NCBI GenBank assembly: GCA_026388255.1
Contig: JAPLKC010000131.1
Span: 17,373 to 41,372 of the forward strand
Reading direction: 5' to 3'
Length of the DNA: 24,000 nt
From: Pseudomonadota bacterium
GTDB taxonomy: Bacteria > Desulfobacterota > Syntrophorhabdia > Syntrophorhabdales > Syntrophorhabdaceae
Shown: positions 10,769-23,660 of the stretch, piece after piece
How the letters are laid out: each line of letters begins with the position of its first letter
How positions within the stretch are numbered: position 1 is the first letter of the stretch
Translations under genes and position numbers: made by a program
Notes under the pieces: generated by a model
Databases searched by the model: none
What the model was told of the DNA's origin: nothing
What the model saw: the letters and a program-made list of their open reading frames with translations, nothing else

Positions 10769-10886
10769 AAACAAGGGACACTCATAGCCAGATATGGTAT
10801 GAAGCCCGTAGCAACCTTATGGGGTGGAATAAAAATGAAGCCCGTGATGTTTTTGCGAGCTAATTAACTCTGGGTGTCCCTTGTTT
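10769..10886 (+). ncRNA. Candidate structured RNA or MITE-like element: a 16-bp closing stem around ~86 nt
   Basis: aaacaagggacactca (10769-10784) pairs with tgggtgtcccttgttt (10871-10886). Thirteen pairs are a perfect run, followed by one G-T and two further pairs. The interior holds a direct repeat of atgaagcccgt at 10799-10809 and 10835-10845. It also holds a small hairpin, cccgta/tatggg. No ORF covers it. Confidence 0.3.
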
Positions 10887-10999: not shown

Positions 11000-11255
11000 C
11001 CACCTATCAAACATACAGGCTTTCCTGCAAATCTGAGAATTATTGAAGTCGAGATTTGCAACTGGTGCGTTTGTGTAGCAGCTTTCATTCGATAATGCAC
11101 AAGGATGATCAATATGAAAATTGTTTTACCAAATTATTAAAGCCACCTACCAATCAAGCCTATGGCCCTTTCAATGGATCCGATGATTATTTATTGAAGT
11201 CGAGATTTGCAACTGGAGCGTTCGAATGGCAGCTTTCTTTCCGTAATCCGCAAAA
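11000..11255 (+). repeat. Tandem duplication of a ~145-151-bp non-coding unit with a 26-nt identical core
   Basis: The core ttattgaagtcgagatttgcaactgg occurs at 11040-11065 and again at 11191-11216. Similarity continues downstream (gcgtt..gcagctttc.tt..g.taat.c.caa) and upstream (ccacctaYcaa at 11000 and 11143). The two copies fall in different reading frames, and copy A hits a stop codon. Confidence 0.85.
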
Positions 11256-11442
11256 GTAATCAGTGGGAAAATTAAATTCGCCGGTTATTAACGCCGCCCA
11301 TAAAACTTGCAGGCCAGGGCATAAGTAAAATTGTCGGTTGCCAGTTGAAATATTTTATCGCCATCGAAGAAATATTATTTAAAAATATTGTCTGTTAATT
11401 ATCAAACTTATATTCAGCATTTTTTTCAAAATATATTTTCCA

Positions 11443-11476
11443 CTGCCATACACTTGGCAGTCAGGCATGGTATAAA
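11443..11476 (+). promoter_or_regulatory. Palindromic operator + extended -10 promoter of WYL regulator 1 (site 1)
   Basis: CTGCCA (11443-11448), tacact, TGGCAG (11455-11460), then 10 nt ending in TGg, then TATAAA (11471-11476). The RBS ggagg and the ATG at 11504 follow. Confidence 0.6.
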
Positions 11477-11503
11477 ATACACAAGAAACATGTGGAGGTA
11501 TAA

Positions 11504-12451
11504 ATGTCATTTAAATTTGATTCATTAATGAGGATTCTTAACATGCTTGACAGAAAAGAAAAGGTAACAGTACAGTCGCTTATGTATGATTTGAATATCA
11601 GTGAGAGGAGCACCTACCGCTATGTGACAACCCTGAAAGATGCCGATTTCCCCATCAACTTTGACAGGGAAAAGGGTACATATACCTTCGAAGAAGGGTA
11701 TAGCCTGAGCAAGCCGGACCTTACACTGGAAGAGATCCTTGCCTTCTCTCTGGCCAGGAAACTCCTCGGTAATTTTGGCCCCGGCATGGAAACTACCCTT
11801 GATCAGATAGAAAAAAAGATTTCCATAAAGAAATCCGGGGTATTAAAGAATGTTATTTTCTCTCATGAAGATTTTTCAGCCAAGGTTGGAGAGTACCTTT
11901 TTTCCATTCACCAGGCAATTCAGAATTTTCAGAAGATTGAACTTGTTTACAGGGCGCTCTATTCAGACGAAGTGACAAAACGTAAGGTAAACCCTTACTA
12001 TCTTTTTTCCCAGGATGATTTATGGCATTTCAGGGCATATTGTAATCTGAGAAAAGATTTTAGAACTTTTGCTCTTGATCGTATAAAATCAATGAGAATA
12101 CTCGATGAACACTTTGTCCCTGGAAGAATCCCGCAAGAAGATGAACTTGCAGGTGCTTTCGGAACATATATCGATGGTGAACCCGTAGAGGTAGTCATGA
12201 GATTTGATGAAGATATAAAACCCTATATTCTGCGGAAAAAATGGCATAAAAGCCAGCAGGATCACCCTCTTGATGACGGGAGAATTGAACTGACCTTTAT
12301 TGTTAACGGCATTGAAGGCATAAAGCAATGGGTATATAAATGGCTCCCATATGTTGAGGTTATAGAACCGAAAGAACTTAAGGCAACACTATTGGAAGAC
12401 TTGACTAGATCCATTGAGAAAAACAGGAAAACAATGAAAGGTAAAACGTGA
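11504..12451 (+). CDS. HTH-WYL-domain transcriptional regulator (BrxR/CapW/YafY-like), paralogue 1
   Basis: 315-aa ORF. The N-terminal wHTH reads RILNMLDRKEKVTVQSLMYDLNISERSTYRYVTTLKDADFPI. The central WYL-type region reads YRALYSDEVTKRKVNPYYLFSQDDLWHFRAYCNLRKDFRTFALDRI. The C-terminal WCX-like part reads KWHKSQQ...VNGIEGIKQWVYKWLPYVEVIEPKEL. Confidence 0.85.
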   Translation: MSFKFDSLMRILNMLDRKEKVTVQSLMYDLNISERSTYRYVTTLKDADFPINFDREKGTYTFEEGYSLSKPDLTLEEILAFSLARKLLGNFGPGMETTLDQIEKKISIKKSGVLKNVIFSHEDFSAKVGEYLFSIHQAIQNFQKIELVYRALYSDEVTKRKVNPYYLFSQDDLWHFRAYCNLRKDFRTFALDRIKSMRILDEHFVPGRIPQEDELAGAFGTYIDGEPVEVVMRFDEDIKPYILRKKWHKSQQDHPLDDGRIELTFIVNGIEGIKQWVYKWLPYVEVIEPKELKATLLEDLTRSIEKNRKTMKGKT

Positions 12452-12544
12452 AGGGTCAAAAAACAATATCGGATAGCTGTTTTGTAGATCGATGAATAGG
12501 AGCACAAATCAGCAATAAAGACTTTTGTAAAAAAAGGGAGTACC

Positions 12545-14026
12545 ATGGAATATAACAAGAAAGATGAAATATACCTAAACAAGTCGCTCTTTATCAGGGC
12601 TCTCCAGTGCCACAAATCACTCTATCTCAAGAAGCACCAACCTGATTTGGCAGAGACGCCTTCTGAGGACCAGCAGGCAAGAATGGAGAGCGGACAAGAA
12701 GTCGGCATCCTTGCTCAGGATTTATTCCCGGGAGGCATAGAGATTCCGTATGAGGGATTAAGTTATGATGAGCAGCTTGCAAGAACAGATGAAGCAGTCA
12801 GGACGGGCCATACGATCTATGAAGGCGCCTTCAGATATGACAATATTTTCATTAAAGTTGATATCCTTTACAAAGGTGCTGACGGCTGGGAACTCTATGA
12901 GGTAAAGGGATCAACGGAGGTCAAGGAATACCACACAAACGACATTTCCCTTCAGTACTATGTCCTTAAAAATGCCGGTATCCCCGTATCGAGGGCATGT
13001 CTTGTCCATATCAACAACCAGTATATACGTAACGGTGAAATAGAGGTTGGTAAACTCTTTATCTCAGAGGACCTTACCGGTATGGTTCAGGAGAAAGAAA
13101 GCTTAGTCAGGGAAGAGGTTGCAAAGATGCGGGAGATGCTGAATGGTGACGTGCCTCAAATTGATATTGGAAGTTACTGCGACGACCCGTACCCATGTGA
13201 TTTTAGCAGCCACTGCTGGAAACACATTCGGGAAGGGTCTGTCTTTGACCTGGCAGGCAGGGGCGTTGACCGTTACGACCTTTACTACAAGGGGGTCAAA
13301 AGACTCATCGACATCCCCACAGACATTCTCACGAACAGCCAGAGGATTCAAGTTGAGTGCGCAAGGGACAAAAGCAGCATAATTGACAAGGAACAGTTAA
13401 GGAAATTCCTTTCACGGCTCTGGTATCCGCTCTATTTTCTTGATTTCGAGACATATATGCCTGCCATCCCCCTTTATGACGGGATGTCACCCTACCAGCA
13501 GATGCCTTTTCAGTATTCTCTATTCGTGCAGATAAATGAAGGAGTGCCCCTTCAACACTATGAATACATTGCTCAACCCAACGTTGATCCGAGGAGAGAG
13601 CTTATCGAAAAACTCCTTTATGAGATTCCCCAGGGGTCATGCGGACTTGCCTACAACTCCTCTTTTGAGGTAAACAGACTGAATGAACTTGCTGTATGGC
13701 TTCCAGAATACAAGGATACAATTGCTGAAATTACAGAAAACATTATTGACCTGGCAATACCTTTCAGAAGCAAATATGTCTACTCATGGGAAATGTGTGG
13801 TTCTTACTCACAGAAGGCTGTACTGCCTGCTCTTGTACCTGAGCTGAGTTATAACGGTATGGAAGTTGCTGACGGCGGTATGGCTATGGATGCCTACTTC
13901 CAGATGTGTACCTCCAAAGATCAGGACGAAATTGAAAGAATCAGGAAAGCCCTCCTCGAATACTGTAAGCTCGATACTTTGGGAATGGTGAAGATTTTGG
14001 AGAAGCTGAAGGCACTTATCTTATAG
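12545..14026 (+). CDS. DUF2779-type protein: N-terminal Cas4-like PD-(D/E)xK nuclease with a Cys cluster + C-terminal FET-motif domain
   Basis: 493-aa ORF with RBS gggag. The N-terminus LNKSLFIRALQCHKSLYLKK is typical of the family. The nuclease motif is VDILYKGADGWELYEVKGS (D...ExK). A Cys cluster, C-x5-C-x5-C (YCDDPYPCDFSSHC), is joined by the N-terminal Cys. The hallmark FLDFETYMPAIPLYDGMSPYQQMPFQYSL is present. Later AYNSSFEVNRL and ADGGMAMDAY suggest a DEDD-like exonuclease arrangement. Confidence 0.75.
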   Translation: MEYNKKDEIYLNKSLFIRALQCHKSLYLKKHQPDLAETPSEDQQARMESGQEVGILAQDLFPGGIEIPYEGLSYDEQLARTDEAVRTGHTIYEGAFRYDNIFIKVDILYKGADGWELYEVKGSTEVKEYHTNDISLQYYVLKNAGIPVSRACLVHINNQYIRNGEIEVGKLFISEDLTGMVQEKESLVREEVAKMREMLNGDVPQIDIGSYCDDPYPCDFSSHCWKHIREGSVFDLAGRGVDRYDLYYKGVKRLIDIPTDILTNSQRIQVECARDKSSIIDKEQLRKFLSRLWYPLYFLDFETYMPAIPLYDGMSPYQQMPFQYSLFVQINEGVPLQHYEYIAQPNVDPRRELIEKLLYEIPQGSCGLAYNSSFEVNRLNELAVWLPEYKDTIAEITENIIDLAIPFRSKYVYSWEMCGSYSQKAVLPALVPELSYNGMEVADGGMAMDAYFQMCTSKDQDEIERIRKALLEYCKLDTLGMVKILEKLKALIL

Positions 14027-14565
14027 TGTTAAACCTTAGGAATGATACGGAAATAAAACGAGCCCTGGAAGAAAGGGGTTTTGTTACAACCTGGAGCGAT
14101 CCTTTTTTTGACTGGATTCGCAAATCCAATGCCAACAGCTCCGAACTGCCAGAAAAACCACAGCGGTTTTTCATCACTGATCCTCCAGTTCCGAAGGTTG
14201 CTCCCTTTGACATCGCCACAATAAGAATAGACACCTCCAACGATTCCATCTACTTTGCCCTCACCTTCTATTTCTCCAGTGTTATGGAACCATGTCTTGG
14301 ACCGGAGGACTTCCATGAGGTCTTTCATAAACATGATACGTACTGGATCGTAAAGCTCGAAGAATATTTCAGTGAAATAGAACATCGGTTTAAGCTCAAA
14401 TGGAATATTGAATACGATTCAACCATTGAAGATACTCTCTACGGCTTGTTTCTATTTGATCAGGATGAAAAGGTTTTCGAAATTCTGGAAGCGTTAAAAA
14501 TATCGCAGGATTCTGTTTGCCGGAAGGCTGGCAATCAAATGGGTTTAACCAATTTAGGAGGATAG
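14026..14565 (+). CDS. Hypothetical protein (no recognisable motif)
   Basis: 179-aa ORF with a GTG start that overlaps the last base of the upstream stop codon, an arrangement consistent with translational coupling. The start codon is uncertain. Confidence 0.5.
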   Translation: MLNLRNDTEIKRALEERGFVTTWSDPFFDWIRKSNANSSELPEKPQRFFITDPPVPKVAPFDIATIRIDTSNDSIYFALTFYFSSVMEPCLGPEDFHEVFHKHDTYWIVKLEEYFSEIEHRFKLKWNIEYDSTIEDTLYGLFLFDQDEKVFEILEALKISQDSVCRKAGNQMGLTNLGG

Positions 14566-14570
14566 AAGAA

Positions 14571-15086
14571 ATGAAAGGAAGATCTCAATTCATTGGCGCT
14601 GCTGGTCAGCATTACGTCGCTTATTGCCTCTCAATCCGTGGTATACACGCCGCTATTACACTTGGCAATGTGCCTGCCGTTGATGTGATTGTAGCGAAGC
14701 CAGACGGAGAGCTTGCACTGTCAATTCAAGTCAAAACATCCAGATGGGCGCACCGGCCTAATCGATACGGCAAGGAGTTGTGTGAATGGGATGTCGGCTC
14801 CTCCGCTGTCAATCGCTTTAGTGACCATCTCTGGTATGCGTTTGTCGATTTGCAGGAAAGCGATACACCTCCATGGAATCCACGCGTGTTCCTTGTCCCA
14901 TCCTTATGGGTCGGCAAGTTCGTAAAGGATGAATGGTCACGGAAACTATATATGCTGCCAAAAGATGCTTGGCCTCTCTGTCTTGAACGTTGGGACAGGA
15001 TTAACGCTTTTTTTGACGGCGAATTAGAGACTTGCAATTGGTACAGCACTATTCCACCGGAGGCAGCAGATTGGGAAGCCTCCTAA
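14571..15086 (+). CDS. Small putative PD-(D/E)xK-fold (Hjc/Mrr-like) protein
   Basis: The track ORF starts at 14517. The ATG at 14571 has a strong RBS (aggagg, 14556-14561) and lies 5 nt after the upstream stop. The translation MKGRSQFIGAAGQHYVAYCLSIRGIHAAITLGNVPAVDVIVAKPDGELALSIQVKTS shows the G..G......L...G, D-x-I, QVK layout of restriction-endonuclease-fold proteins. Q sits where E is usual. Confidence 0.55.
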   Translation: MKGRSQFIGAAGQHYVAYCLSIRGIHAAITLGNVPAVDVIVAKPDGELALSIQVKTSRWAHRPNRYGKELCEWDVGSSAVNRFSDHLWYAFVDLQESDTPPWNPRVFLVPSLWVGKFVKDEWSRKLYMLPKDAWPLCLERWDRINAFFDGELETCNWYSTIPPEAADWEAS

Positions 15087-15147
15087 CTTTGGATGCAGCC
15101 AATCGACTATAAATTTTTCTATTACATTTCTTAGATAAAAAATACCG

Positions 15148-15181
15148 CTGCCAAACAGGTGGCAGAAGGGTCTGCTATACT
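15148..15181 (+). promoter_or_regulatory. Palindromic operator + extended -10 promoter (site 2) upstream of the 15203 operon
   Basis: CTGCCA (15148-15153), aacagg, TGGCAG (15160-15165), then 10 nt ending in TGc, then TATACT (15176-15181). The RBS aaggaga and the ATG at 15203 follow. Confidence 0.6.
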
Positions 15182-15202
15182 GACTTGTAAAGGAGAATCC
15201 TT

Positions 15203-15997
15203 ATGGACGGAGGAAGCTTGCAAAACGGTACATCTGGGCAGTTGCTGATGTGGGAAGCCATAGACTATTTTATTTCCGCCGGTAAAGTTGTTTGCCGGCT
15301 TTTCAAGGATGATTTAAGGGAATTGGTCTCTAAGTCAGATAACAGGTTTAAATCTATGCACCTCAGAGAACCGTTCACCGTTGATTTGGGTCAGAATAAA
15401 TTGTCTGCCGGTAATTATAAGAGAGAAGAAGAAGGATATGCCGACTGGCTTATATGGATTCTGATGCAGCTCAGCGGTGCACAAATATTGAGTATATTCG
15501 GGATAACAGACGAAACAACCCTGAAATCCTGCACTTCTTTGACGCCTGTTATTAAGAAGGAGGTAAGTGTTCGGCCATGTCCGGAAACACCGTATGTCAG
15601 GACCGATATCCTGATAATTTATACAGATATACTTTTAATACACGTTGCAGTGAAGGTAATCGACGCCAGAATAGCTCATGTTCAGGAGCAAGGTGTTTAT
15701 AGAAAATCGCTTGAAGGGAGAGGGTTTGAACATATTCCGAAGTGCCACCATATACTGCTTGTAATTAATTCATTCCATGAAGAATACGATGGATATAAAG
15801 TGCTGAGATGGGCTGATTTATGTCTTAACCTCAGACAAATAATTCTTACAGAAGGGAGTCTTGATAATCTACTCGTTAAATCAGCAATAGCAATATTTGT
15901 CGGTATAGTCGAACAAACTTTGTTAGGCCTTTCAGTCAGCGGTTTTTCCGGCAGCTCAAAATTGATAGATTATATGGAATTAATATTAAGGCGATAA
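15203..15997 (+). CDS. PDDEXK_4-like protein, apparently degenerate (ExK replaced by AVK)
   Basis: 264-aa ORF. EEEGYADWLIWILMQL resembles the N-terminal E..hs.wLa.LL motif of the neighbouring 16708 protein. The core is YVRTDILIIYTDILLIHVAVKVID, with Ala at the catalytic Glu position. Confidence 0.5.
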   Translation: MDGGSLQNGTSGQLLMWEAIDYFISAGKVVCRLFKDDLRELVSKSDNRFKSMHLREPFTVDLGQNKLSAGNYKREEEGYADWLIWILMQLSGAQILSIFGITDETTLKSCTSLTPVIKKEVSVRPCPETPYVRTDILIIYTDILLIHVAVKVIDARIAHVQEQGVYRKSLEGRGFEHIPKCHHILLVINSFHEEYDGYKVLRWADLCLNLRQIILTEGSLDNLLVKSAIAIFVGIVEQTLLGLSVSGFSGSSKLIDYMELILRR

Positions 15998-16001
15998 CAA
16001 T

Positions 16002-16637
16002 ATGGATAATCAGAAAAACCTGAATGTTTCTCTCGATAATTTATTGGAACAAGGAATGCAATCGTATCTGTTTGCGTTACTTACAGTACAACAGTTCAGG
16101 GTAGAGGTTCAAAAACGAACATTAAATGCCCTAACAGGAAAAATCAAAGAACTTGGCGATGCCATGGGCAGGGATATTGATGAAAGCTGGTTAAAACCCT
16201 ATATAAATCCTGATGGTCTGTCAGACCCAGGCTATGATGGAAGCAGAGCCGAGGTTTCGTTAAAGCTTTTTGTAGCTCCGGTGGACTGCTATTTTGGAAT
16301 GCGCTTCGAGCTTGATGGTGAGGGGAAAACAGAATCTTATGTCACGGTAAATATGTGGCCATGGACAAAGGAGCAGATGCATTTCTTACTTCAGAAAACC
16401 AAAGAAGTTACTGACGACTTTAATAACAATATGGGAAATGAAATAGAAATTCGTGAAATTCTCAACCCGGCAGAGCATGAGTTTTTTGAGAAAAAATTGA
16501 TTGCCCTGATAGATAAATGGATAGCTGTTTGGAAAAAAGTGGGCGGCATTGATACAATGAATAATGGTTTTCCATCTGAGTTTGCAACTGCCTACCCCTT
16601 GAAAGCAAGTCCAGAAGCTGCGCCAGGTCATCCCTAA
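16002..16637 (+). CDS. Hypothetical protein
   Basis: 211-aa ORF that starts 4 nt after the upstream stop. I recognise no motif. Confidence 0.55.
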   Translation: MDNQKNLNVSLDNLLEQGMQSYLFALLTVQQFRVEVQKRTLNALTGKIKELGDAMGRDIDESWLKPYINPDGLSDPGYDGSRAEVSLKLFVAPVDCYFGMRFELDGEGKTESYVTVNMWPWTKEQMHFLLQKTKEVTDDFNNNMGNEIEIREILNPAEHEFFEKKLIALIDKWIAVWKKVGGIDTMNNGFPSEFATAYPLKASPEAAPGHP

Positions 16638-16707
16638 GGTACACTTTCTTTGCCTTGTTTTATTTGTTCCCTTGAAGTAAAATGTTAACAATTTTAGAGG
16701 ATAGATT

Positions 16708-17871
16708 ATGAATATAGATGAATTTCTTAGAGGCCTACACGGAAGACTCGAAAGCTTTCAGCATGCACGGGAATTGTATGCACCACGGCTGGCCCCTGAT
16801 TTTAATAGCTTTAATGTTATCTCTCCGGATGAAATGCGATTGTCAAAAATCCTGGCAACATTGCTTGATCCTGCCGGTGAACATGCACAAGGTCCAGCGT
16901 TTCTAAAGGCGTTCCTGCACTGGGCCCAACTTGAAGGCTACTTGGCTGAATCCAATCCGGTAAAGGTTCAAACTGAAGTGGTTACTGACCGCATCGACAA
17001 TCCAATGCGCCGAATGGATATTATCATAGACTTCGGGGATGCGGCCATTGTCATCGAAAATAAGCCATGGACCGGCGATCAAAGTGAACAGGTAAGCGAT
17101 TATGTCAAACAGGTGAAGAGTAGCCATCCTAACAATTTTTGCCTGTTATATTTATCTGGTACAGGCGAACCACCAACTGAAGCGAGTGTTTTGCCAACCA
17201 ATAGGGCGGAATTAGAGAGAAAAGAACAGCTCAAAGTTAAACCATACTCTACCCTATTGGATTGGCTAACTGGCTGCAAGGCTGTCTGCCAGTCTGAAAG
17301 GGTAAGACATTTTCTTGATGATTTTTCGGATTATATCCGTCAGCAATTTATGGGGGTACACGACATGACTGAATTTAATGAAATCTCCAACGCCGTAAGA
17401 AAAACGAAGGAAACGCTTCGGGCAGCCCTTAAGGTAGCTGCCAATATTGACGGCATCAAGATAGATTTACTTGATCAGCTTAAAGCCCAACTTACCGACA
17501 GAGTTCAAAAAAGGTCCTGGATTCTTGACTGGCATATTGAGTATTGGAATAAATATTCATGTTTCGGGATTTCCTTTGCTAAGGAGCAACAACAATATGA
17601 AGTATGGTTTGAATTTGATGGCAAACAATGTCAGGGATTGCATTATGGTATATTAGATAAAAATCTCTTAAACCAAGAAGAAATCCGGAATCGCCTCAAT
17701 AGCAATATTACAACTGGCAAAAATGGCGACGGGTGGCTTTGGAGAATAGATGGTCCTGAACCTTACCTTTATTGGCTCAATAGCGAAGAACCATGGATGG
17801 ACATTATTTGCAACGATAAACTTGCGGATATGGTAATCGAGTATGCCGAGAAAATTTATCAAGCGTTGTAG
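16708..17871 (+). CDS. PD-(D/E)xK nuclease family protein (PDDEXK_4-like)
   Basis: 387-aa ORF with RBS agagga. FNVISPDEMRLSKILATLLDPAGEHAQGPAFLKAFL matches the family's N-terminal motif. The catalytic core is RRMDIIIDFGDAAIVIENKPWTGDQSEQVSDY, giving D, ExK and QxxxY. Confidence 0.7.
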   Translation: MNIDEFLRGLHGRLESFQHARELYAPRLAPDFNSFNVISPDEMRLSKILATLLDPAGEHAQGPAFLKAFLHWAQLEGYLAESNPVKVQTEVVTDRIDNPMRRMDIIIDFGDAAIVIENKPWTGDQSEQVSDYVKQVKSSHPNNFCLLYLSGTGEPPTEASVLPTNRAELERKEQLKVKPYSTLLDWLTGCKAVCQSERVRHFLDDFSDYIRQQFMGVHDMTEFNEISNAVRKTKETLRAALKVAANIDGIKIDLLDQLKAQLTDRVQKRSWILDWHIEYWNKYSCFGISFAKEQQQYEVWFEFDGKQCQGLHYGILDKNLLNQEEIRNRLNSNITTGKNGDGWLWRIDGPEPYLYWLNSEEPWMDIICNDKLADMVIEYAEKIYQAL

Positions 17872-18125
17872 GCGGGACCAAGTCTCTTGGATAAATTGCG
17901 GTAATTATGCCCATCTCTTAGAATTAGAATTTGAGCACATCGAACATTAACCGGACTCACATTTAGAAACACAATGGAAGGATTCTTATCACTCCCCATC
18001 ACTAAAACTTCGTATCATTGTAGTATTTTCCTTCCGTTAAAAAATATATTTGAAAAATAGGGACGGGAAACAACCTTTAAAAGCATTCACGATAGGTACT
18101 AATAAAAACCCAAAGGATAAAAAAC

Positions 18126-18470
18126 ATGCCAACTCAAAAAAGCAACATCATCAATGCCCTGAGAATGCTCAACACCCAAAACTTATTTTCCAAGGATGAT
18201 CTGTCCATTGTCATCCCTGCTCTTGTTTTTATGGCAGAGAAATTCAACTGGGAATCCTACAGTCTGATGAAAAAATACGGCAACAACTGGAAAAAAATAT
18301 CAGTAGGCCTTGCGCAAGTATTATTCCAGGGAGACGAGGGCGCCGAAAGTGATTTAAGGGCGCTCCACAGTGAGTATTATACGATGCGCGGGTTATCGTC
18401 AGGAATGTCGCTCTTTCTGGATAAGCTGACTCTAAACATGAAGCAGGAAGACATTAAGAGGAAGGCGTAA
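18126..18470 (+). CDS. Hypothetical protein
   Basis: 114-aa ORF with RBS aaagga. No motif recognised. Confidence 0.5.
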   Translation: MPTQKSNIINALRMLNTQNLFSKDDLSIVIPALVFMAEKFNWESYSLMKKYGNNWKKISVGLAQVLFQGDEGAESDLRALHSEYYTMRGLSSGMSLFLDKLTLNMKQEDIKRKA

Positions 18471-18494
18471 AATATTATGTAAAAAAAGAACACA

Positions 18495-18528
18495 CTGCCA
18501 GACTGTTGGCAAAATGATTCGTTATACT
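18495..18528 (+). promoter_or_regulatory. Palindromic operator + -10 promoter (site 3) upstream of the WG-repeat gene
   Basis: CTGCCA (18495-18500), gactgt, TGGCAA (18507-18512), then 10 nt, then TATACT (18523-18528). The spacing is identical to sites 1 and 2. Confidence 0.55.
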
Positions 18529-18540
18529 GTCATAGGGAGG

Positions 18541-19578
18541 ATGACTTTGGACAGACGAACATTTCTTAAGTTTCTTGCCGGCACGGGCGCCATGTTTTCA
18601 CTTTGGCTCACACCCTCATTGAATGGCAAATCCCGCCATACAAACATCAGATATGGTTTTATCAACAGGACAGGTAAAATAGTCATTGCACCTCGCTTTG
18701 AATTAGCCTTAGGATTCTTGGATGGCCGCGCTGCTGTTCAGATCGATGGGAAATGGGGATATATAGATGAAAATGGTAAACGTGTCGTTCCGGCACAATT
18801 CGATGAAGCCATGGATTTTAATGAAGGTCTTGCATGTGTAGAGTTGGATGGAAAATGCGGTTATATCGATAAAAGTGGTAAATTCGCTGTCCCGCCACAA
18901 TATGAACTTTCATTCTCCGCTTTTTCAGATGGCCTTGCATGTGTGAGGGTAAACGGCAAATATGGGTATATCAATAAAACAGGTAAGTTTGTAATTGATC
19001 CTGTATTTGAGGAAGCATCAGGATTCTCCGAAGGATTGGCAAAGGTAAAAACTTGCAACAAATATTCATTTACTGACAAGACAGGGAAACAGGCTTTCCC
19101 GTATTCCTTTGATGGAGCCCTTCCGTTCTCGGATGGGCTGGCAAGTGTCGTGGTTGACGGACAATGGGGATATATCGACAAAACCGGCAAAATGGTGATA
19201 CGGCATCAGTATCATGGGCACGAGTATTTCAAGGAAGGCATGGTACCGATAATGAGTGAAAAAAAATGGGGGTATATCGATAAAACAGGAGCGGTTGTCA
19301 TTGAACCTCGCTACACTTTAGTCGGAGCTTTTTCCAAAGGTCTCTGCCCCGTTGAATTCGATGGCAAATGGGGATATATTGATGCAAAAGGAAACATGAT
19401 TATCCCGCCAATCTTTGCACATGCATCAGAGTTCAGTGAGGGGATAGCAGATGCACGAAATACTGAAAACGGTAGAGATGGATATATCAACCAAAAAGGC
19501 AAGTATGTTATTAAACCTCAGTTTTACGAAGCATGTTCATTCTCTGAAGGTCTTGCGGTAATAGGGGTAGAGATATAA
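18541..19578 (+). CDS. Exported WG-repeat (KWG-type) protein with a twin-arginine signal
   Basis: Repeated GKWGYID..GK.VI.P.F....F.EGLA units occur about ten times. The N-terminus MTLDRRTFLKFLAGTGAMF is Tat-like. The track start at 18514 lies inside the operator/-10 region and lacks an RBS. The ATG at 18541 abuts gggagg, and the in-frame TTG at 18547 has better spacing, so the start lies at 18541-18547. Confidence 0.75.
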   Translation: MTLDRRTFLKFLAGTGAMFSLWLTPSLNGKSRHTNIRYGFINRTGKIVIAPRFELALGFLDGRAAVQIDGKWGYIDENGKRVVPAQFDEAMDFNEGLACVELDGKCGYIDKSGKFAVPPQYELSFSAFSDGLACVRVNGKYGYINKTGKFVIDPVFEEASGFSEGLAKVKTCNKYSFTDKTGKQAFPYSFDGALPFSDGLASVVVDGQWGYIDKTGKMVIRHQYHGHEYFKEGMVPIMSEKKWGYIDKTGAVVIEPRYTLVGAFSKGLCPVEFDGKWGYIDAKGNMIIPPIFAHASEFSEGIADARNTENGRDGYINQKGKYVIKPQFYEACSFSEGLAVIGVEI

Positions 19579-19865: not shown

Positions 19866-19899
19866 ATGACATAATGCTGTCAGTTATGTGTGGTATTGT
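19866..19899 (+). promoter_or_regulatory. Palindromic operator + extended -10 promoter of WYL regulator 2 (site 4, variant half-site)
   Basis: ATGACA (19866-19871), taatgc, TGTCAG (19878-19883), then 10 nt ending in TGg, then TATTGT (19894-19899). The RBS aaggag and the ATG at 19926 follow. Confidence 0.55.
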
Positions 19900-19925: not shown

Positions 19926-20852
19926 ATGTCATATAAGTTTGATTCACTTGCTATTATCCTCAACAAGCTTGACAGTAAAGAAACCGTAACGGTTTTATCT
20001 CTTACGGATGAGCTTGAGGTAAGCGGGAGAACCGTTCACAGATATATAAGTACGTTGCAGGTAGCTGGATTCCCTATTGAATACGATAAAATAAAGAATA
20101 GCTACGTTTTTACCGAAGGCTATACTCTTAAAAAACCGACCCTTTCGTTAGAGGAGACTCTTGCCTTTGCTCTTGCGAAGAAATTACTCATAAACTTCGG
20201 ACCGGGTATGGAGAAAAGCCTTTCCGATATTGAGGATAAGCTTTCACCAAAAAAAGGGGACTTCAAACATATCATCCTATCTGCAGATGCTTTGCCTGTA
20301 GCATCTGAGCAGTATCTTGGTCTTATACACCAGGCCATAACGAATTATCAGAGGATCAAGCTCGTGTATAAAGCGCTGTATGCTGATAATCCAACGGAAA
20401 GTAGTATAGACCCATACTATTTGTTTTTCAGAGAAGGCATCTGGTATCTCAGGGGAGATTATCATCTGGAAAAAGCTGCAAGAACCTTCGCCCTTGACAG
20501 GATAGTTTCTTTAACGCTTCTTGATGAGCACTTTATCCCGAAGCCTACCTCCCCTGATGATGAGCTGTCCGCTGCCTTCGGGGCATTTATTGACGGTGAG
20601 CCTGTAGAAGTCGTACTGAGGTTTGACAAACTGAGCAAGCCACTTGTCCTGAGAAAGAAATGGCATAAAAGCCAGCAGATTAAAGAGCTTGAGGACGGAG
20701 GTATAGAGGCAAGATTCACTGTAAACGGCATAAAAGGCATACAACCATGGATCTACAGGTGGATACCTTTTGTAGAGGTTATTGCCCCTGAAGAGTTAAG
20801 AGATATGTTTATCAAGGATCTTGACGAAGCCATTAAAAGACATAAGAAATGA
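19926..20852 (+). CDS. HTH-WYL-domain transcriptional regulator (BrxR/CapW/YafY-like), paralogue 2
   Basis: 308-aa ORF that aligns by eye along its full length with the 11504 protein. Shared segments include MSxKFDSL..ILN.LD.KE.VTV.SL, FGPGME, RTFALDRI, LDEHF.P, DEL..AFG..IDGEPVEVV.RFD, LRKKWHKSQQ and VNGI.GI..W.Y.W.P.VEVI.P.EL. Confidence 0.85.
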   Translation: MSYKFDSLAIILNKLDSKETVTVLSLTDELEVSGRTVHRYISTLQVAGFPIEYDKIKNSYVFTEGYTLKKPTLSLEETLAFALAKKLLINFGPGMEKSLSDIEDKLSPKKGDFKHIILSADALPVASEQYLGLIHQAITNYQRIKLVYKALYADNPTESSIDPYYLFFREGIWYLRGDYHLEKAARTFALDRIVSLTLLDEHFIPKPTSPDDELSAAFGAFIDGEPVEVVLRFDKLSKPLVLRKKWHKSQQIKELEDGGIEARFTVNGIKGIQPWIYRWIPFVEVIAPEELRDMFIKDLDEAIKRHKK

Positions 20853-20983
20853 AACTGCATAAAATAGTTGTTGTAGAAAAGAATAAACTATTAACAAAAA
20901 TATCAGCTTGAATAAAGCTACTATATATGATTATTAGAAATCATATCTGCCTTATTAAAAACAGATTAAAAGGGAGGGGTTAA

Positions 20984-21082: not shown

Positions 21083-21118
21083 AAAAAACTAACCTATCAA
21101 AAAAAGGAGTGAAAACAT

Positions 21119-21289: not shown

Positions 21290-21395
21290 TCTGAAGCCTG
21301 GGGTTGTATATGGGATCGATAATTCTTCTTTTTTAGCCGGAGATTCAAGACCGATATATAAACTACAAATTTTCAAAAAAGTGGAGAGAACATGA
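21198..21395 (+). CDS. Overlapping ORF in the +1 frame, probably the 3' part of the same gene
   Basis: Track ORF of 65 aa. Its TTG start has no usable RBS. Its 3' end overlaps the next gene's start in an ATGA junction (21392-21395). This supports translation of this frame downstream of the A7 run (…KKWPMLNDLKPGVVYGIDNSSFLAGDSRPIYKLQIFKK). Confidence 0.35.
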   Translation: MKQALLSYAELSENSSNLIPKHEKKWPMLNDLKPGVVYGIDNSSFLAGDSRPIYKLQIFKKVERT

Positions 21396-22351
21396 ACGAA
21401 GTAAGAAAAGAAGTCGAAAAGATATTATCAGAAAACCAACAGGATTGGGAAGAAAGATTTTATGAGTATTATGAAAAGATAATTAATAACTCGGAAAACA
21501 TAGAGAAAAATAGACAAAAATTTCATATGAGAGGATTTTTACGAGCGTATATGAATTTTGGACAGGCCATGAAAAAAACACCAAAATTTAGTATTCGTTA
21601 CGGAGGACAAATTGCTGGTATAATGAAATTTATGAAAAACAAAAAGGAACCTATCCTTGTAATCACCCCAAAACAAGCTAAAGATAACAATAAGTGGTTT
21701 AAGTTCGATCTTCCAAATGGAGAATACGCTTGGAGATCATCTGCTGAAGCTCAAAAATTTAGAGAGAGATTTGAAAAAAATCCACCGCCACCAGTTAGAC
21801 AAGACGAACACCGCTTAGAAACATTTATTCTTGATGAAATGTTCAACCCTACGATTAAAAAGTTTTGTGGAACTTTTAAAAATATTCAGCCAGTTTGTAT
21901 TGCAAACAATGTTCCTTTCCAGATGCTCATACCAATACGTGCACGCGGAGGAAAGATCGGTTACAAGGATGGTCACATAGATATTGTTGCTCGATATGGT
22001 AGAGGAACAACATCCTTGTTGGCAATTGAAATAAAAAGACCTGGTGGCCAATATCAAGGTGCTGCAAAGCAGGCATACATTTATGCGGTAACCATGTCCT
22101 ATATGTTTAATAAAACAGGAGATAACTTCAAGAAGCACTTATATACGTTATGTGGATATAAAAACGTATATTCAAATCTAAAAATTCATGCTGTGGTTGC
22201 AATTCCCGATACTTATAAATCTAAATTTTCTCAAGAACAAGAATTACTCAATGCTTCTAATATTAACGTTGATATACCTATACATTATATTACTTATCAA
22301 CTTGCAGACAATCAGAGAATTAAAGTTATAGGAACGAGCCTTGAAACTTAA
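21392..22351 (+). CDS. RecB/Cas4-like PD-(D/E)xK nuclease-fold protein (no Cys cluster)
   Basis: 319-aa ORF with RBS ggagag. The core is EHRLETFILDEM ... GHIDIVARYGRGTTSLLAIEIKRPGGQYQGAAKQAYIYA, giving E, D, ExK and QxxxY. I do not recognise the N-terminal ~140 aa. Confidence 0.65.
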   Translation: MNEVRKEVEKILSENQQDWEERFYEYYEKIINNSENIEKNRQKFHMRGFLRAYMNFGQAMKKTPKFSIRYGGQIAGIMKFMKNKKEPILVITPKQAKDNNKWFKFDLPNGEYAWRSSAEAQKFRERFEKNPPPPVRQDEHRLETFILDEMFNPTIKKFCGTFKNIQPVCIANNVPFQMLIPIRARGGKIGYKDGHIDIVARYGRGTTSLLAIEIKRPGGQYQGAAKQAYIYAVTMSYMFNKTGDNFKKHLYTLCGYKNVYSNLKIHAVVAIPDTYKSKFSQEQELLNASNINVDIPIHYITYQLADNQRIKVIGTSLET

Positions 22352-23660
22352 AATTCACCGTGGTACTCACGAAATAGGCGGTTCCTGTGTTGAGGTAAAG
22401 GACTCCGACACGCGTATCGTCATAGACATTGGAATGCCCCTTGTTACAAGAGAGAAAGAAAAATTCGATATGAAGGCATATAAGGAATTATCCGGCCCTG
22501 AACTCGTTGAAAAGCAGATACTGCCTGATATAAAAGGTCTGTATGAATGGGATACCGGCAACAAACCTATTGACGGGCTACTCATTTCACATTCCCATGC
22601 AGACCATTACGGCTTCATGGATTATATACGAGATGATATACGGTGTTTCTTGAGCGAAGGAACGCAGCGTATTATTGAACTTAACAAGAGTTTTTTTAAC
22701 AGGGGTAAACAGATAAAGAACCCCATCATTCTTCAGAGTGGAAAACCTACTCATATCAAGAGTCTAACGGTTACGCCTTACCTGATGGACCATTCTGCTT
22801 TTGATGCTCAGGCATTTCTCATCGAGAGCAAAGACCGTAAGATCATCTATTCGGGTGATTTCAGGGAACACGGGAGAAAAGAAAAAGCCTTTGAATGGTT
22901 TCTGGAAAATGTCCCAAGGGGAGTTGATGCGCTTCTGCTGGAAGGAACGATGGTAGGACAGGTTGACCGTAATTCGAAAACAGAAGAGGAGCTTGAAGTA
23001 GAATTGACCAATCTTATCAAAAAAAGCAATAAAATGACCATTGTATTCCAGTCGTCACAGAACATCGACAGGATTGTGACATGCTTCAAGGCTGCGTGGA
23101 AAGCAAAACGCCTGTTTGTTATCGACCTATATACTGCGCATGTCCTTCATACCCTAAAGAACACAACGAGATCCCCTCGAATCCCATATCCATCTCAGAA
23201 AGACTTCCCTACATTGAAAGTCTTTTTCCCAAAAAGGCTGTGTGACCTCCTTGCAAGAACTAACAAAAAAGAATTGATGTATGCGTTCAAAGACTTCAAG
23301 ATAGACCGGGGACAGATATCGGAAAATCCACAAAAGGTGGTTATGCTGGTGAGGCCTTCCATGCTTGGAGACTTGAAGCAGTTGCAGGGAATTCATGGGG
23401 CATCGGCAATATACTCCCAGTGGCAGGGATATCTTGATGAAACACCGATGAAAAGGATGATGGATTTTCTCAAAAGCCAGGACGTAGACATTATCCATCT
23501 TCATACGAGTGGTCATGCAGGTATGAGAACACTCAAGAAGGTCATTGATGTGGTAAAACCAAAAACGATAATACCCATTCACACTTTCTATCCTGAACTT
23601 TACGAGAAATTCGGCGCCAATGTGCTCAAGTTGGAAGACGGACAGGAGATTTCCGTATAG
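22341..23660 (+). CDS. beta-CASP-family metallo-beta-lactamase-fold nuclease
   Basis: 439-aa ORF whose TTG start overlaps the upstream gene by 11 nt. The MBL motifs are RIVIDIGMP, LLISHSHADHYGF, LMDHSAFD and IIYSGDFR. The beta-CASP-like motifs are ALLLEGTM and IHLHTSGHA, and the protein ends with IIPIHT. Confidence 0.8.
   Translation: MKLKIHRGTHEIGGSCVEVKDSDTRIVIDIGMPLVTREKEKFDMKAYKELSGPELVEKQILPDIKGLYEWDTGNKPIDGLLISHSHADHYGFMDYIRDDIRCFLSEGTQRIIELNKSFFNRGKQIKNPIILQSGKPTHIKSLTVTPYLMDHSAFDAQAFLIESKDRKIIYSGDFREHGRKEKAFEWFLENVPRGVDALLLEGTMVGQVDRNSKTEEELEVELTNLIKKSNKMTIVFQSSQNIDRIVTCFKAAWKAKRLFVIDLYTAHVLHTLKNTTRSPRIPYPSQKDFPTLKVFFPKRLCDLLARTNKKELMYAFKDFKIDRGQISENPQKVVMLVRPSMLGDLKQLQGIHGASAIYSQWQGYLDETPMKRMMDFLKSQDVDIIHLHTSGHAGMRTLKKVIDVVKPKTIIPIHTFYPELYEKFGANVLKLEDGQEISV

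What the first reader, a model, noticed from the sequence alone, without database searches (positions are those of the whole stretch)
11443..18528. One operator-promoter cassette recurs three times with identical spacing: a putative WYL-regulator regulon spanning 7 kb
Three intergenic sites share the same layout.
- Site 1 (11443-11476): CTGCCA tacact TGGCAG tcaggcaTGg TATAAA, before WYL-1.
- Site 2 (15148-15181): CTGCCA aacagg TGGCAG aagggtcTGc TATACT, before the 15203-17871 operon.
- Site 3 (18495-18528): CTGCCA gactgt TGGCAA aatgattcgt TATACT, before the WG-repeat gene.

In each site an 18-bp palindrome is followed by exactly 10 nt and then a -10 hexamer. Two of the three carry the extended -10 TGn. 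None has a recognisable -35, because the palindrome occupies that position.

This is what a repressor operator overlapping an extended -10 promoter would look like. The adjacent HTH-WYL protein is the obvious candidate binder. If so, one regulator coordinates at least three transcription units (about 9 genes), which is more than the usual regulator-plus-one-operon arrangement described for BrxR/CapW-type regulators.
Basis: seen in the sequence. Interest (0 to 1): 0.8.

Follow-up and report, generated by a model that had tools for sequence, protein, structure and literature searches.

The report
Repeated WYL-regulator promoter cassette
A 34-base unit, a palindromic protein-binding site placed exactly ten bases before a promoter -10 box, precedes at least four gene groups in this island and the related regulator genes of many other bacteria, so it marks a real WYL-regulator regulon that the regulator more likely switches on than off.

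Summary
CTGCCA-N6-TGGCAG/A, then 10 nt, then a TATAxx box occurs at 11443, 15148 and 18495.

A matrix built only from sites in other genomes finds exactly four hits in the window. They score 24-31 bits; the next unrelated position scores 0.2. A fifth site lies 2.7 kb past the window end.

The same cassette precedes 22 WYL-homologue genes in other MAGs and contigs. It also precedes DUF2779 nucleases, a WG-repeat gene and an AAA ATPase. About half of the site-bearing loci carry 2-6 sites. So the regulon and the WYL binder are well supported.

The repressor reading is the weaker one:
- Characterised WYL repressors (CapW, BrxR) bind over or downstream of the -10.
- Characterised WYL activators (DriD, PafBC, SiwR) bind where the -35 would be, at a fixed distance from the -10, on promoters lacking a -35.
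- That is the geometry here, including PafBC's hexamer-N10--10 spacing.
- The protein is also closer to DriD and PafBC than to CapW and BrxR.

Verdict: a new, uncharacterised member of a known kind. No transcription data exist, so the direction of regulation is inferred.

The parts
11443..11476 (+). Cassette 1: palindrome CTGCCAtacactTGGCAG (11443-11460), 10-nt spacer ending in TGg, -10 box TATAAA (11471-11476). It drives WYL-1 and probably the next three genes.
   Evidence: 30.8 bits. The palindrome and TGnTATAAA are invariant in four orthologous promoters whose flanks diverge.
11504..12451 (+). WYL-1, a wHTH-WYL-WCX transcription factor of 315 aa and the candidate binder. Recognition helix SERSTYRY.
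   Evidence: Pfam HTH_11, WYL and WCX. 90 homologues found. Fold and profile are closest to DriD and PafBC.
12545..14026 (+). DUF2779 protein: a Cas4-like PD-(D/E)XK nuclease fused to a predicted 3'-5' exonuclease. It is the conserved partner of the WYL gene.
   Evidence: Pfam DUF2779, Cas_Cas4 and RNase_H_2. It sits next to WYL in L055, L057, L058 and JmHAV_89. It has its own cassette in five other loci.
14026..15086 (+). Two overlapping ORFs of unknown function (14026-14565 and 14517-15086). They are probably the distal genes of transcription unit 1.
   Evidence: No significant family hits. No cassette lies between them and WYL-1.
15148..15181 (+). Cassette 2: palindrome CTGCCAaacaggTGGCAG, spacer aagggtcTGc, -10 box TATACT (15176-15181).
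   Evidence: 24.1 bits. A continuous 68-bp block from 46 bp upstream of the palindrome through the cassette is identical in L062, whose downstream gene is 81% identical, while the 5'UTR diverges.
15203..17871 (+). Transcription unit 2: 264-aa and 211-aa proteins of unknown function, and a 387-aa PD-(D/E)XK nuclease (PDDEXK_4; PADLOC candidate family PDC-S26).
   Evidence: Homologues of the first gene occur only in WYL/DUF2779 islands.
18495..18528 (+). Cassette 3: palindrome CTGCCAgactgtTGGCAA, spacer aatgattcgt with no TGn, -10 box TATACT (18523-18528).
   Evidence: 27.2 bits. A WG-repeat homologue (45% identical) in L003 also has its own cassette.
18541..19578 (+). WG-repeat protein with a twin-arginine signal. 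The true start is probably ATG 18541 or TTG 18547, after the GGGAGG at 18535-18540, not the ATG at 18514 given by the ORF list.
   Evidence: Pfam WG_beta_rep in 9 stretches, plus TAT_signal. Sequence read.
19866..19899 (+). Half-sites are the A/T type.
   Evidence: 29.7 bits.
19926..20852 (+). WYL-2, a paralogous wHTH-WYL-WCX regulator of 308 aa, 55% identical to WYL-1. Recognition helix SGRTVHRY.
21392..23660 (+). A 319-aa protein of unknown function and a beta-CASP/metallo-beta-lactamase RNase-J-like protein. They are possibly co-transcribed with WYL-2. The same WYL/unknown/MBL order recurs in L064.
   Evidence: No cassette of their own.

Best explanation
Each cassette is a WYL-dependent promoter. 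A dimer of the island's wHTH-WYL-WCX regulator binds the 18-20 bp palindrome aCTG(C/A)CA-N6-TG(G/T)CAGt. The regulator is WYL-1, possibly also WYL-2.

The palindrome is centred about 19.5 bp upstream of the -10 hexamer, spanning roughly -40 to -23. That is where a -35 box would be, and these promoters have none.

From that fixed position the regulator most likely helps RNA polymerase use the -10 box, as DriD, PafBC and SiwR do. The likely trigger is a nucleic-acid ligand in the WYL domain, with single-stranded DNA as the leading candidate.

This would switch on, together, the regulator's own operon (WYL-1, the DUF2779 nuclease and two unknowns), the 15203-17871 nuclease operon, the WG-repeat gene, WYL-2, and an AAA ATPase just outside the window.

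Shown: the sites, their spacing, their conservation, and their link to the WYL family.
Inferred: binding by WYL-1, the direction of regulation, and the ligand.
For: The sites are real and specific.
- Exactly four hits of 24-31 bits in the window, using a matrix built from other genomes. The next unrelated position scores 0.2 bits.
- 58 exact palindromes in 753 kb of related loci, against about 0.7 expected from 10 specified bases (my arithmetic).
- No hit of 22 bits or more in shuffled loci.

Link to the WYL protein.
- The cassette lies directly before 22 WYL homologues of 39-88% identity.
- It is footprinted in four orthologous promoters.

Spacing is under selection.
- TANNNT falls at offset 10 in 44 of 116 orientations and at offset 11 in 12, against a 1.1% background. 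Spacer sequences differ between sites.
- In L003, two adjacent palindromes each serve one of two divergent promoters at their own offset of 10.
- No -35 box: the best match is 3 of 6 or fewer in 42 of 46 family sites and in all four window sites.

The geometry matches known WYL activators.
- The PafBC motif is tGTCgg(N10)tA(N3)T (PMC8635444). Here it is TG(T/G)CAG-N10-TAnnnT.
- By my reading of the published DriD oligonucleotides, the GTC core starts 15 bp before the -10 hexamer. That matches both this site and PafBC.
- SiwR has a palindrome between -35 and -10 and is an activator (PMC10693628).

Protein similarity favours the activators.
- Family profile against PDB sequences: PafBC 1.5e-20 (its best stretch covers mainly the WYL region); DriD 1e-16, aligned over residues 18-307; CapW 7e-11 and BrxR 8e-8, over the WYL domain only.
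- Foldseek: DriD 9e-16, PafBC 9e-13, CapW 1e-10, BrxR 5e-10.
- The model has three linker helices, as DriD's three-helix bundle does.
- Six of nine DriD ssDNA-contact residues are kept or conservatively replaced.
Against: - There are no transcription or binding data of any kind.
- About a third to a half of the family's cassettes carry an extended -10 TGn, including 3 of the 4 in the window. Their -10 boxes are good (TATACT, TATAAA). Such promoters could fire unaided, which would suit a repressor that blocks them.
- Defence-island WYL regulators characterised so far (BrxR, CapW) are repressors, and part of the cargo here looks defence-like (PDC-S26).
- Similarity to DriD and PafBC is low (about 20% identity). 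The AlphaFold model is only moderate (pLDDT 70.9, pTM 0.35), and TM-scores are poor because domain arrangement differs.
- The DriD -10 assignment is my own reading of oligonucleotide sequences. The published figure was not available.
- In one deltaproteobacterial subgroup, a second TANNNT at offset 5 makes the -10 assignment ambiguous.
Confidence: 0.55

Rival explanations
1. The palindrome is an operator. The ligand-free WYL dimer sits at about -40 to -23 on self-sufficient extended -10 promoters and blocks RNA polymerase. A ligand such as ssDNA releases it, as for CapW and BrxR.
For: - 3 of 4 window cassettes, and 35-50% of family cassettes, have TGn plus a good -10, so they may not need an activator.
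- Autoregulation from a site before the regulator's own gene is typical of CapW and BrxR.
- The cargo includes nucleases and a PADLOC candidate defence family.
- The arginine after the W-x-x motif is kept: LWHFR in WYL-1 against RWHVR in the repressors.
Against: - Characterised WYL repressors bind over the -10 (CapW) or downstream of it (BrxR), not at the -35 position.
- A steric repressor does not need the strict 10-nt spacing seen across about 60 independent sites.
- The full RWHVR motif is absent.
- By sequence profile and by fold, the protein is closer to the activators.
Confidence: 0.3
2. The regulator has a dual function. It occupies the site in both states. It holds the promoter shut without ligand and activates it with ligand, or WYL-1 and WYL-2 act oppositely on the same sites.
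For: - The site position is compatible with both occlusion and RNA polymerase contact.
- Two paralogues with related sites sit in one island.
- Half-site position 4 is tolerant. L057 and L058 each show one called WYL gene of the Ser-36 type, yet have sites of both C/G and A/T types.
Against: - There is no precedent in the WYL literature read here: DriD and PafBC bind promoter DNA productively only with ssDNA, and CapW only without it.
- Most related loci show a single WYL match, so two regulators are probably not required.
Confidence: 0.1
3. The palindromes are not WYL sites at all. They could be sigma-54 -24 elements (TGGCAC-like), RNA hairpins or terminators, or recombination sites of a mobile cassette system.
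For: - TGGCAG resembles the sigma-54 -24 box.
- The terminator scan flags 15165-15148 and 18512-18495 on the minus strand.
- The cargo behind the cassettes varies between genomes, as in a cassette array.
Against: - Sigma-54 needs GC at -12. A C at the required spacer position occurs in 1 of 46 sites. The GG is replaced by GT in many sites, and the mirror half-site is unexplained.
- Conservation is of sequence (CTGNCA), not of pairing. The T-runs lie on the non-coding strand only.
- No recombinase gene was seen in the genes annotated.
- The tight coupling to a -10 box, a ribosome-binding site and a start codon 12-21 nt downstream marks a promoter.
Confidence: 0.03

Closest known systems
DriD of Caulobacter crescentus (homodimeric wHTH-WYL-WCX activator of an SOS-independent DNA-damage response)
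   Same: - Same domain order, and the best fold match (Foldseek 9e-16). The profile alignment is full-length.
- Binds a palindrome as a dimer.
- The site overlaps the missing -35 at an identical distance from the -10 in every regulated promoter, including its own gene's promoter (PMC13004042).
- The site centre lies about 19 bp before the -10 hexamer, against 19.5 bp here (my reading).
- Several promoters per regulator.
   Different: - The site sequence differs: ATACGAC-N7-GTCGTAT, 21 bp, against CTGNCA-N6-TGNCAG.
- About 20% protein identity.
- DriD targets are damage-response genes (didA, bapE, recJ, dnaG). Here the cargo is island-borne nucleases, a WG-repeat exported protein and an AAA ATPase.
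- Half the promoters here have an extended -10.
- Activation here is inferred, not shown.
PafBC of mycobacteria and Arthrobacter (WYL activator acting by sigma adaptation)
   Same: - The promoter motif is a hexamer, N10, then the -10: tGTCgg(N10)tA(N3)T (PMC8635444). This has the same spacing and the same GTC core as TGTCAG-N10-TAnnnT here.
- The promoters lack a -35.
- Best sequence match in the PDB (1.5e-20).
- JGI names one homologue 'proteasome accessory factor B'.
   Different: - PafBC is a heterodimer or fusion that reads one half-site only. Here the site is a full palindrome, which implies a symmetric homodimer.
- The PafBC regulon is chromosome-wide, about 150 genes.
- There is no proteasome or Pup context here.
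SiwR of Mycobacterium smegmatis
   Same: A homodimeric WYL activator that binds a 19-bp imperfect palindrome between -35 and -10. The -26 region is essential (PMC10693628).
   Different: It controls a single adjacent operon of DinB-like genes. Here there is a multi-promoter regulon with different cargo.
BrxR and CapW (WYL repressors of BREX, CBASS and defence islands)
   Same: - Same wHTH-WYL-WCX architecture and palindromic sites of about 20 bp.
- Autoregulated, and located in islands of defence-like genes.
- BrxR of pEFER has two R-boxes in one island (PMC9122601).
- ssDNA is the ligand of CapW (PMC11662680).
   Different: - Their operators overlap the -10 (CapW) or lie downstream of it (BrxR), not at -35.
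- Their RWHVR motif is not kept here.
- They are weaker sequence and fold matches than the activators.
DdaA of Moraxellaceae
   Same: A WYL activator with a palindromic motif, CGWCA-N5-TGWCG. It controls many promoters, including defence genes such as CRISPR-Cas and restriction-modification (PMC12392091).
   Different: - Its motif sits about 50 bp upstream of the start site, the classical upstream-activator position. It does not replace the -35.
- It is a chromosomal master regulator that replaces SOS.

Membership tests
wHTH-WYL-WCX transcription factors | N-terminal winged HTH, central WYL (Sm-like) domain, C-terminal WCX domain | tested here: met
   Pfam HTH_11, WYL and WCX in both WYL-1 and WYL-2. 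The fold matches DriD, PafBC, CapW and BrxR, all with probability 1.00.
wHTH-WYL-WCX transcription factors | Dimer binds a palindromic site of about 20 bp near its own gene | tested here: inconclusive
   A 20-bp palindrome is conserved before 22 homologous genes. Physical binding and dimer state cannot be tested here.
WYL activator-type promoters (DriD, PafBC, SiwR) | Binding site occupies the -35/-26 position of promoters that lack a -35 hexamer | tested here: met
   The palindrome ends 10 nt before the -10. The best -35 match is 3 of 6 or fewer in 42 of 46 family sites and in all 4 window sites. Literature definition.
WYL activator-type promoters (DriD, PafBC, SiwR) | Site at one fixed distance from the -10 in all regulated promoters | tested here: met
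   TANNNT at offset 10 in 44 and at offset 11 in 12 of 116 orientations, against a 1.1% background. All four window sites have offset 10.
WYL activator-type promoters (DriD, PafBC, SiwR) | Regulator groups with the activators rather than the repressors | tested here: met
   Profile E-values: PafBC 1.5e-20, DriD 1e-16, CapW 7e-11, BrxR 8e-8. Foldseek: DriD 9e-16, PafBC 9e-13, CapW 1e-10, BrxR 5e-10. The margins are modest, and no phylogeny was made.
WYL activator-type promoters (DriD, PafBC, SiwR) | ssDNA-binding pocket of the WYL domain | tested here: inconclusive
   Kept or conservatively replaced: DriD Y168, R178, Y192, R204, W206 and Y240 correspond to WYL-1 Y149, R160, H175, R187, F189 and Y222. 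Not kept: R176, R207 and R288. This rests on an HMM alignment only.
WYL activator-type promoters (DriD, PafBC, SiwR) | Regulator increases transcription and recruits or adapts RNA polymerase | not testable with these tools
   Needs reporter assays, in vitro transcription or structural work.
BrxR/CapW-type WYL repressors | Operator overlaps the -10 or lies between the promoter and the gene | tested here: not met
   The palindrome ends 10 nt upstream of the -10 at all four sites.
BrxR/CapW-type WYL repressors | Conserved RWHVR motif in the WYL domain | tested here: not met
   WYL-1 has LWHFR and WYL-2 has IWYLR. The family consensus is FWHLR: the first arginine is absent and the second is present.
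BrxR/CapW-type WYL repressors | Placed next to a recognised defence system (BREX, CBASS, restriction-modification and others) | tested here: inconclusive
   PADLOC gives only a candidate family, PDC-S26, for 16708-17871 and weak Cas4 hits for DUF2779. Relatives carry a TIR protein, a DUF4007/PAPS-reductase set, and HNH and ARPP-1 genes.
Sigma-54 promoter | GG at -24 and GC at -12 (TGGCAC-N5-TTGC) | tested here: not met
   A C at the required spacer position occurs in 1 of 46 sites. GG is replaced by GT in many sites.
Intrinsic terminator or RNA hairpin | Stem kept by compensatory change, with a T-run after it on the transcribed strand | tested here: not met
   The half-site sequence itself is conserved across genomes. 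T-runs follow only on the minus strand, opposite to all neighbouring genes.

The most novel reading that the evidence does not exclude
The WYL regulator and the DUF2779 double nuclease form a conserved sensor core. The 34-bp cassette is a portable 'plug' that wires newly acquired cargo genes into one ligand-triggered regulon. The cargo includes nucleases, an AAA ATPase, AAA-tubulin pairs, Tpt1, WG-repeat proteins, and TIR and HNH genes.

This would be a modular, horizontally exchangeable activator regulon for island-borne conflict genes in Thermodesulfobacteriota and Nitrospirota. The nuclease might itself make the ssDNA signal.

The identical position of the GTC core, 15 bp before the -10, in this family, in PafBC and in DriD would then mark an ancient, shared mode of polymerase engagement across WYL activators.
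Probability: 0.3. Interest if true: 0.65.

Novelty: new member of a known kind. Interest (0 to 1): 0.5.

Why it matters
It gives a ready-made, testable regulon for an uncharacterised WYL subfamily from poorly studied anaerobes: a defined 20-bp site, five promoters, and two paralogous regulators.

Three things would follow if the model holds.
- **Activation in an island.** It would show that island-borne, defence-like genes can be under WYL activation rather than the repression known for BrxR and CapW.
- **Functional leads.** It ties DUF2779 nucleases and several unknown proteins to a ligand-sensing, probably ssDNA-sensing, regulator. That is a first functional lead for these genes.
- **A shared rule.** The spacing shared with PafBC and DriD suggests a general geometric rule for WYL activators. 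That rule could be used to predict the direction of regulation from sequence alone.

Tried and rejected
- **Sigma-54 promoter.** Rejected: no GC at -12 (1 of 46), GG is not invariant, and the mirror half-site is unexplained.
- **Terminator or RNA hairpin.** Rejected: the T-runs are on the wrong strand, and conservation is of sequence rather than pairing. Rfam found nothing at gathering thresholds.
- **Palindrome half-site acting as the -35.** CTGACA resembles TTGACA but lies 22 bp from the -10. Rejected on spacing.
- **Recognition-helix against half-site covariation.** The aim was to assign sites to WYL-1 or WYL-2. All eight full-length proteins (a ninth, L049, is truncated) with pure A/T-type sites have Thr at position 36. 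All proteins with Ser-36 have at least one C/G half-site, including a switch within the WYL-2-like clade. But Thr-36 also goes with C/G sites in five loci, and Ser-36 loci carry A/T-type second sites. The result is suggestive only, and the sequences are not phylogenetically independent.
- **TGn in WYL-gene promoters against cargo promoters.** No difference: 13 of 24 against 25 of 55, p = 0.62.
- **Contig of P0094.** It had no DNA on file, so only its gene list could be used.
- **NCBIfam and PADLOC on cargo genes.** Nothing reached a curated cut-off. One PADLOC call failed on a bad coordinate.
- **A more distant WYL homologue in L064.** It has no such cassette and a different palindrome, ATGTGGCCAAAAATGTCACAT. 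The motif is therefore specific to this subfamily.

Full report
**Observation**

- Site 1: CTGCCAtacactTGGCAG at 11443-11460.
- Site 2: CTGCCAaacaggTGGCAG at 15148-15165.
- Site 3: CTGCCAgactgtTGGCAA at 18495-18512.

Each is followed by exactly 10 nt and then TATAAA, TATACT and TATACT respectively. Sites 1 and 2 have TGn before the -10. The pattern TGCCA-N6-TGGCA occurs exactly three times in the 24 kb, all on the + strand.

Each -10 is followed by a Shine-Dalgarno sequence and a start codon, giving predicted 5'UTRs of about 12-21 nt (read). For the WG-repeat gene, the ORF list starts at ATG 18514, which would lie inside the cassette. The likely start is ATG 18541 or TTG 18547, after GGGAGG, which gives a twin-arginine signal peptide.

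**A fourth and a fifth site**

Upstream of a second WYL gene (19926-20852, 55% identical to WYL-1) the same layout recurs with A/T-type half-sites. It reads ATGACAtaatgcTGTCAG at 19866-19883, then ttatgtgTGg, then TATTGT.

I built a 40-column weight matrix from 44 sites found only in other genomes and scanned the window with it. It returns exactly four hits, all on the + strand:

| Position | Score (bits) |
|---|---|
| 11443 | 30.8 |
| 19866 | 29.7 |
| 18495 | 27.2 |
| 15148 | 24.1 |

The best position that is not one of these or its mirror image scores 0.2 bits. The maximum over 200 shuffles of the window averaged 3.8 bits, with a largest value of 20.9.

An assembly contig from another data set, L060, is identical to window 22277-24000 over 1724 bp and extends it. 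It carries a fifth site on the minus strand, CTGCCATAGTGTTGTCAG, then catggtgTGg, then TATTTA. This lies about 40 nt before a 723-aa double-AAA ATPase gene, at window-equivalent position 26678-26695.

**Who binds it**

WYL-1 (11504-12451) has HTH_11, WYL and WCX domains. It has 90 database homologues of 29-88% identity.

An alignment of 26 of them retrieved 53 loci from species-representative genomes. Most are MAGs of Thermodesulfovibrionales/Nitrospirota, Syntrophorhabdaceae and other 'delta-proteobacterial' lineages.

In the 100 nt before these homologous genes, most carry CTG(A/C)CA-N6-TG(G/T)CAG followed by about 10 nt and TAnnnT.
- In 753 kb of these loci there are 58 exact palindromes. 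From ten specified bases, about 0.7 would be expected (my arithmetic).
- At 22 bits or more there are 71 sites in 58 loci, and none in shuffled copies.
- The first gene after a site is a WYL homologue in 22 cases outside the window.
- In four orthologous promoters (window, L055, L057, L058; proteins 84-88% identical), the block cACTGCCAnnCACnTGGCAGt and TGnTATAAA is invariant while the flanks diverge.

This is strong comparative evidence that the palindrome is the recognition site of this WYL subfamily. Binding itself has not been shown.

**The regulon is real and typical of the family**

Other genes that directly follow a cassette in relatives include:
- DUF2779 nucleases, in five other loci.
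- A WG-repeat protein 45% identical to the window's, in L003, transcribed divergently from the WYL gene with its own palindrome.
- The AAA ATPase (L058).
- A homologue of the 15203 gene (L062).
- A homologue of the window's 18126 gene (L062).
- An AAA plus tubulin/FtsZ operon (L055).
- Tpt1/KptA, HD, HNH, ARPP-1 and ORF6N proteins, among others.

Site 2 lies within a continuous 68-bp block that is identical between the window and L062. The block starts 46 bp upstream of the palindrome and ends one base after the -10. The 5'UTR behind it diverges.

Of the 58 loci, 17 have no site, 21 have one, 13 have two, 6 have three and 1 has six. The window, with four sites in 24 kb and five in the island, is at the high end but is not unique.

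WYL followed by DUF2779 is the conserved core, and the cargo behind it varies. DUF2779 is an uncharacterised fusion of a Cas4-like nuclease and a predicted 3'-5' exonuclease (PMC13621843 and PMC3985635).

**Repressor or activator**

Four lines of evidence point the other way.

1. *Position.* The palindrome ends 10 nt before the -10 hexamer, so it spans about -40 to -23. It replaces the -35. The best -35-like hexamer at 16-18 bp matches 3 of 6 in three window sites and 2 of 6 in the fourth. It matches 3 of 6 or fewer in 42 of 46 family sites.

2. *Spacing.* Over 58 exact sites taken in both orientations, TANNNT falls at offset 10 in 44 cases and offset 11 in 12. The background frequency is 1.1% per position. 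The spacer sequences differ between most sites, so the distance itself is being kept. In L003 two adjacent palindromes each serve one of two divergent promoters at their own 10-nt offset, although a single shared operator would be enough for a steric repressor.

3. *Precedent.*
   - Characterised WYL repressors bind elsewhere. CapW palindromes overlap the -10 (PMC9122588). BrxR of pEFER binds just downstream of the promoter (PMC9122601).
   - Characterised WYL activators bind where these sites lie. PafBC-dependent promoters have the motif tGTCgg(N10)tA(N3)T, with the upstream element at -26 (PMC8635444).
   - SiwR binds a 19-bp palindrome between -35 and -10 and activates (PMC10693628).
   - Here the promoter-proximal half-site is TG(T/G)CAG-N10-TAnnnT, which is the PafBC spacing with the same GTC core.
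   - From the DriD oligonucleotides printed in the paper (…CTGTCGCAA TGCGCGGA CAATCT…, with the 'optimised -35' placed in the centre of the site), I read the GTC core as also starting 15 bp before the -10 hexamer, and the dyad centre as about 19 bp before it. Here the centre is 19.5 bp before it. The -10 assignment for DriD is my inference, because the figure is not available.

4. *The protein.*
   - The family profile matches PafBC at 1.5e-20 (its best stretch covers mainly the WYL region) and DriD at 1e-16 over residues 18-307. It matches CapW at 7e-11 and BrxR at 8e-8, over the WYL domain only.
   - An AlphaFold model (pLDDT 70.9, pTM 0.35) has three linker helices, as DriD's three-helix bundle does.
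   - Foldseek ranks every DriD and PafBC chain above every CapW and BrxR chain: 9e-16 and 9e-13 against 1e-10 and 5e-10.
   - The repressors' RWHVR motif (PMC11662680) is LWHFR in WYL-1 and IWYLR in WYL-2.
   - Six of nine DriD ssDNA-contact residues are kept or conservatively replaced: Y149, R160, H175, R187, F189 and Y222. Three are not.

**What keeps the repressor model alive**

- Three of the four window cassettes, and 35-50% of family cassettes, have an extended -10 TGn and good -10 boxes. Such promoters may work without help.
- The characterised island-associated WYL regulators are repressors.
- The protein similarities to the activators are remote.
- A subgroup of deltaproteobacterial sites also has a TGnTAnnnT at offset 5, which blurs the -10 assignment there.

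I therefore put the activator model at about 0.55, the repressor model at about 0.3, and a dual-function variant at about 0.1.

**Which paralogue binds which site**

Sites 1-3 have C/G at half-site position 4, like WYL-1's own site. Site 4 has A/T. The recognition helices differ: SERSTYRY in WYL-1 and SGRTVHRY in WYL-2.

Across 26 regulator-site pairs, all pure A/T sites go with Thr-36, and all Ser-36 proteins have at least one C/G half-site. But Thr-36 also occurs with C/G sites. Loci whose only called WYL gene is a Ser-36 protein have A/T-type or mixed second sites. Position 4 is therefore tolerant, and cross-talk between WYL-1 and WYL-2 is likely. The assignment remains open.

**Other readings rejected**

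- *Sigma-54 promoter.* The required C of the -12 GC is present in 1 of 46 sites. GG is often GT, and the mirror half-site is unexplained.
- *Terminator or hairpin.* The scan flags two of the palindromes only on the minus strand, opposite to all neighbouring genes. Conservation is of sequence, not of pairing.
- *Known RNA families.* Rfam finds nothing.
- *Recombination sites.* No recombinase gene was seen among the genes annotated, and the coupling to a -10 box, a ribosome-binding site and a start codon marks promoters.

**Context**

The left 10 kb of the window looks like ordinary chromosome. It holds a NusG-like protein, TPR/SlipAM, FecR-like and OmpH-like proteins, and a CHASE2 adenylate cyclase.

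The island starts after about 10.6 kb, with roughly 870 bp of non-coding DNA that contains a hairpin and a 108-nt direct repeat.

The cargo is nuclease-rich:
- DUF2779.
- PDDEXK_4, the PADLOC candidate family PDC-S26.
- A beta-CASP RNase-J-like protein.

No recognised complete defence system was found.

**Novelty and score**

It is a WYL transcription factor with a palindromic site replacing the -35 at fixed spacing, serving several promoters. DriD, PafBC, SiwR and DdaA set the precedent, and even BrxR has two boxes.

Three things are new:
- This particular subfamily, its motif, and its fixed partner DUF2779.
- The use of a compact cassette to wire variable island cargo.

Interest is 0.5.

Noticed in passing
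window 11040-11147 and 11191-11298: A 108-nt direct repeat in two copies, 75% identical and 151 nt apart, lies in the roughly 870-bp non-coding stretch at the left edge of the island, just upstream of cassette 1. Its function is unknown. No tRNA and no Rfam match.
   Followed up: partly
window 10769-10886: An inverted repeat with 19-nt arms, 89% complementary and 80 nt apart (AAACAAGGGACACTCATAG / CTCTGGGTGTCCCTTGTTT), lies in the same non-coding stretch. It could be a structured RNA or an element boundary.
   Followed up: no
window 11504-14026; L055 10001-12507; L057 116-2531; L058 92-2605; JmHAV_89: The WYL regulator followed by a DUF2779 double nuclease is a conserved gene pair. Where the two are separated, DUF2779 has its own cassette, as in L002, L006, L012, L028 and L032. 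This is a first functional lead for DUF2779.
   Followed up: partly
window 19926-23660; L064 3946-7520: The order WYL-2, then a protein of unknown function of about 320-360 aa, then a beta-CASP/MBL RNase-J-like protein recurs in L064 next to a more distant WYL regulator. That regulator has a different palindrome, ATGTGGCCAAAAATGTCACAT.
   Followed up: partly
L055 1894-9965: In the closest long relative, the WYL island abuts SSB, PDDEXK_1, UvrD-helicase, two RadC genes and a DUF932 gene. To my knowledge this set is typical of the leading region of conjugative elements, so the module may travel on mobile elements.
   Followed up: no
L055 13040-15714: A cassette precedes an AAA ATPase plus tubulin/FtsZ-family gene pair, followed by DUF6915 and Tpt1/KptA genes. 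DUF6915 and Tpt1 also follow cassettes in L012 and L006. The cargo set is unusual and its function is unknown.
   Followed up: no
window 18126-18470; L062 7995-8402: The 114-aa gene at 18126 has no cassette in the window, but its homologue in L062 has one. That cassette's spacer, aagggtctgc, is identical to the spacer of site 2. This suggests whole cassettes are duplicated or lost between relatives.
   Followed up: partly
window 18514-18547: The mechanical ORF start of the WG-repeat gene (ATG 18514) lies inside cassette 3. The real start is probably ATG 18541 or TTG 18547, which gives MDRRTFLKF, a twin-arginine signal.
   Followed up: yes
related loci, spacer after the palindrome: The spacer is not random. 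T at offset 0 occurs in 38 of 46 sites, G at offset 3 in 30 of 46, and T and A at offsets 5-6 in 27 and 25 of 46. One subgroup reads TCTGGTAGGATAT, which holds a second possible extended -10 at offset 5. Window sites 1-3 keep the G at offset 3. The reason is unexplained.
   Followed up: partly
window 20986-21290: Two small ORFs lie between WYL-2 and the 21392 gene. They are called as 32-aa and 56-aa genes in another assembly, L061. The second has a CxxC…C pattern. They were not analysed.
   Followed up: no
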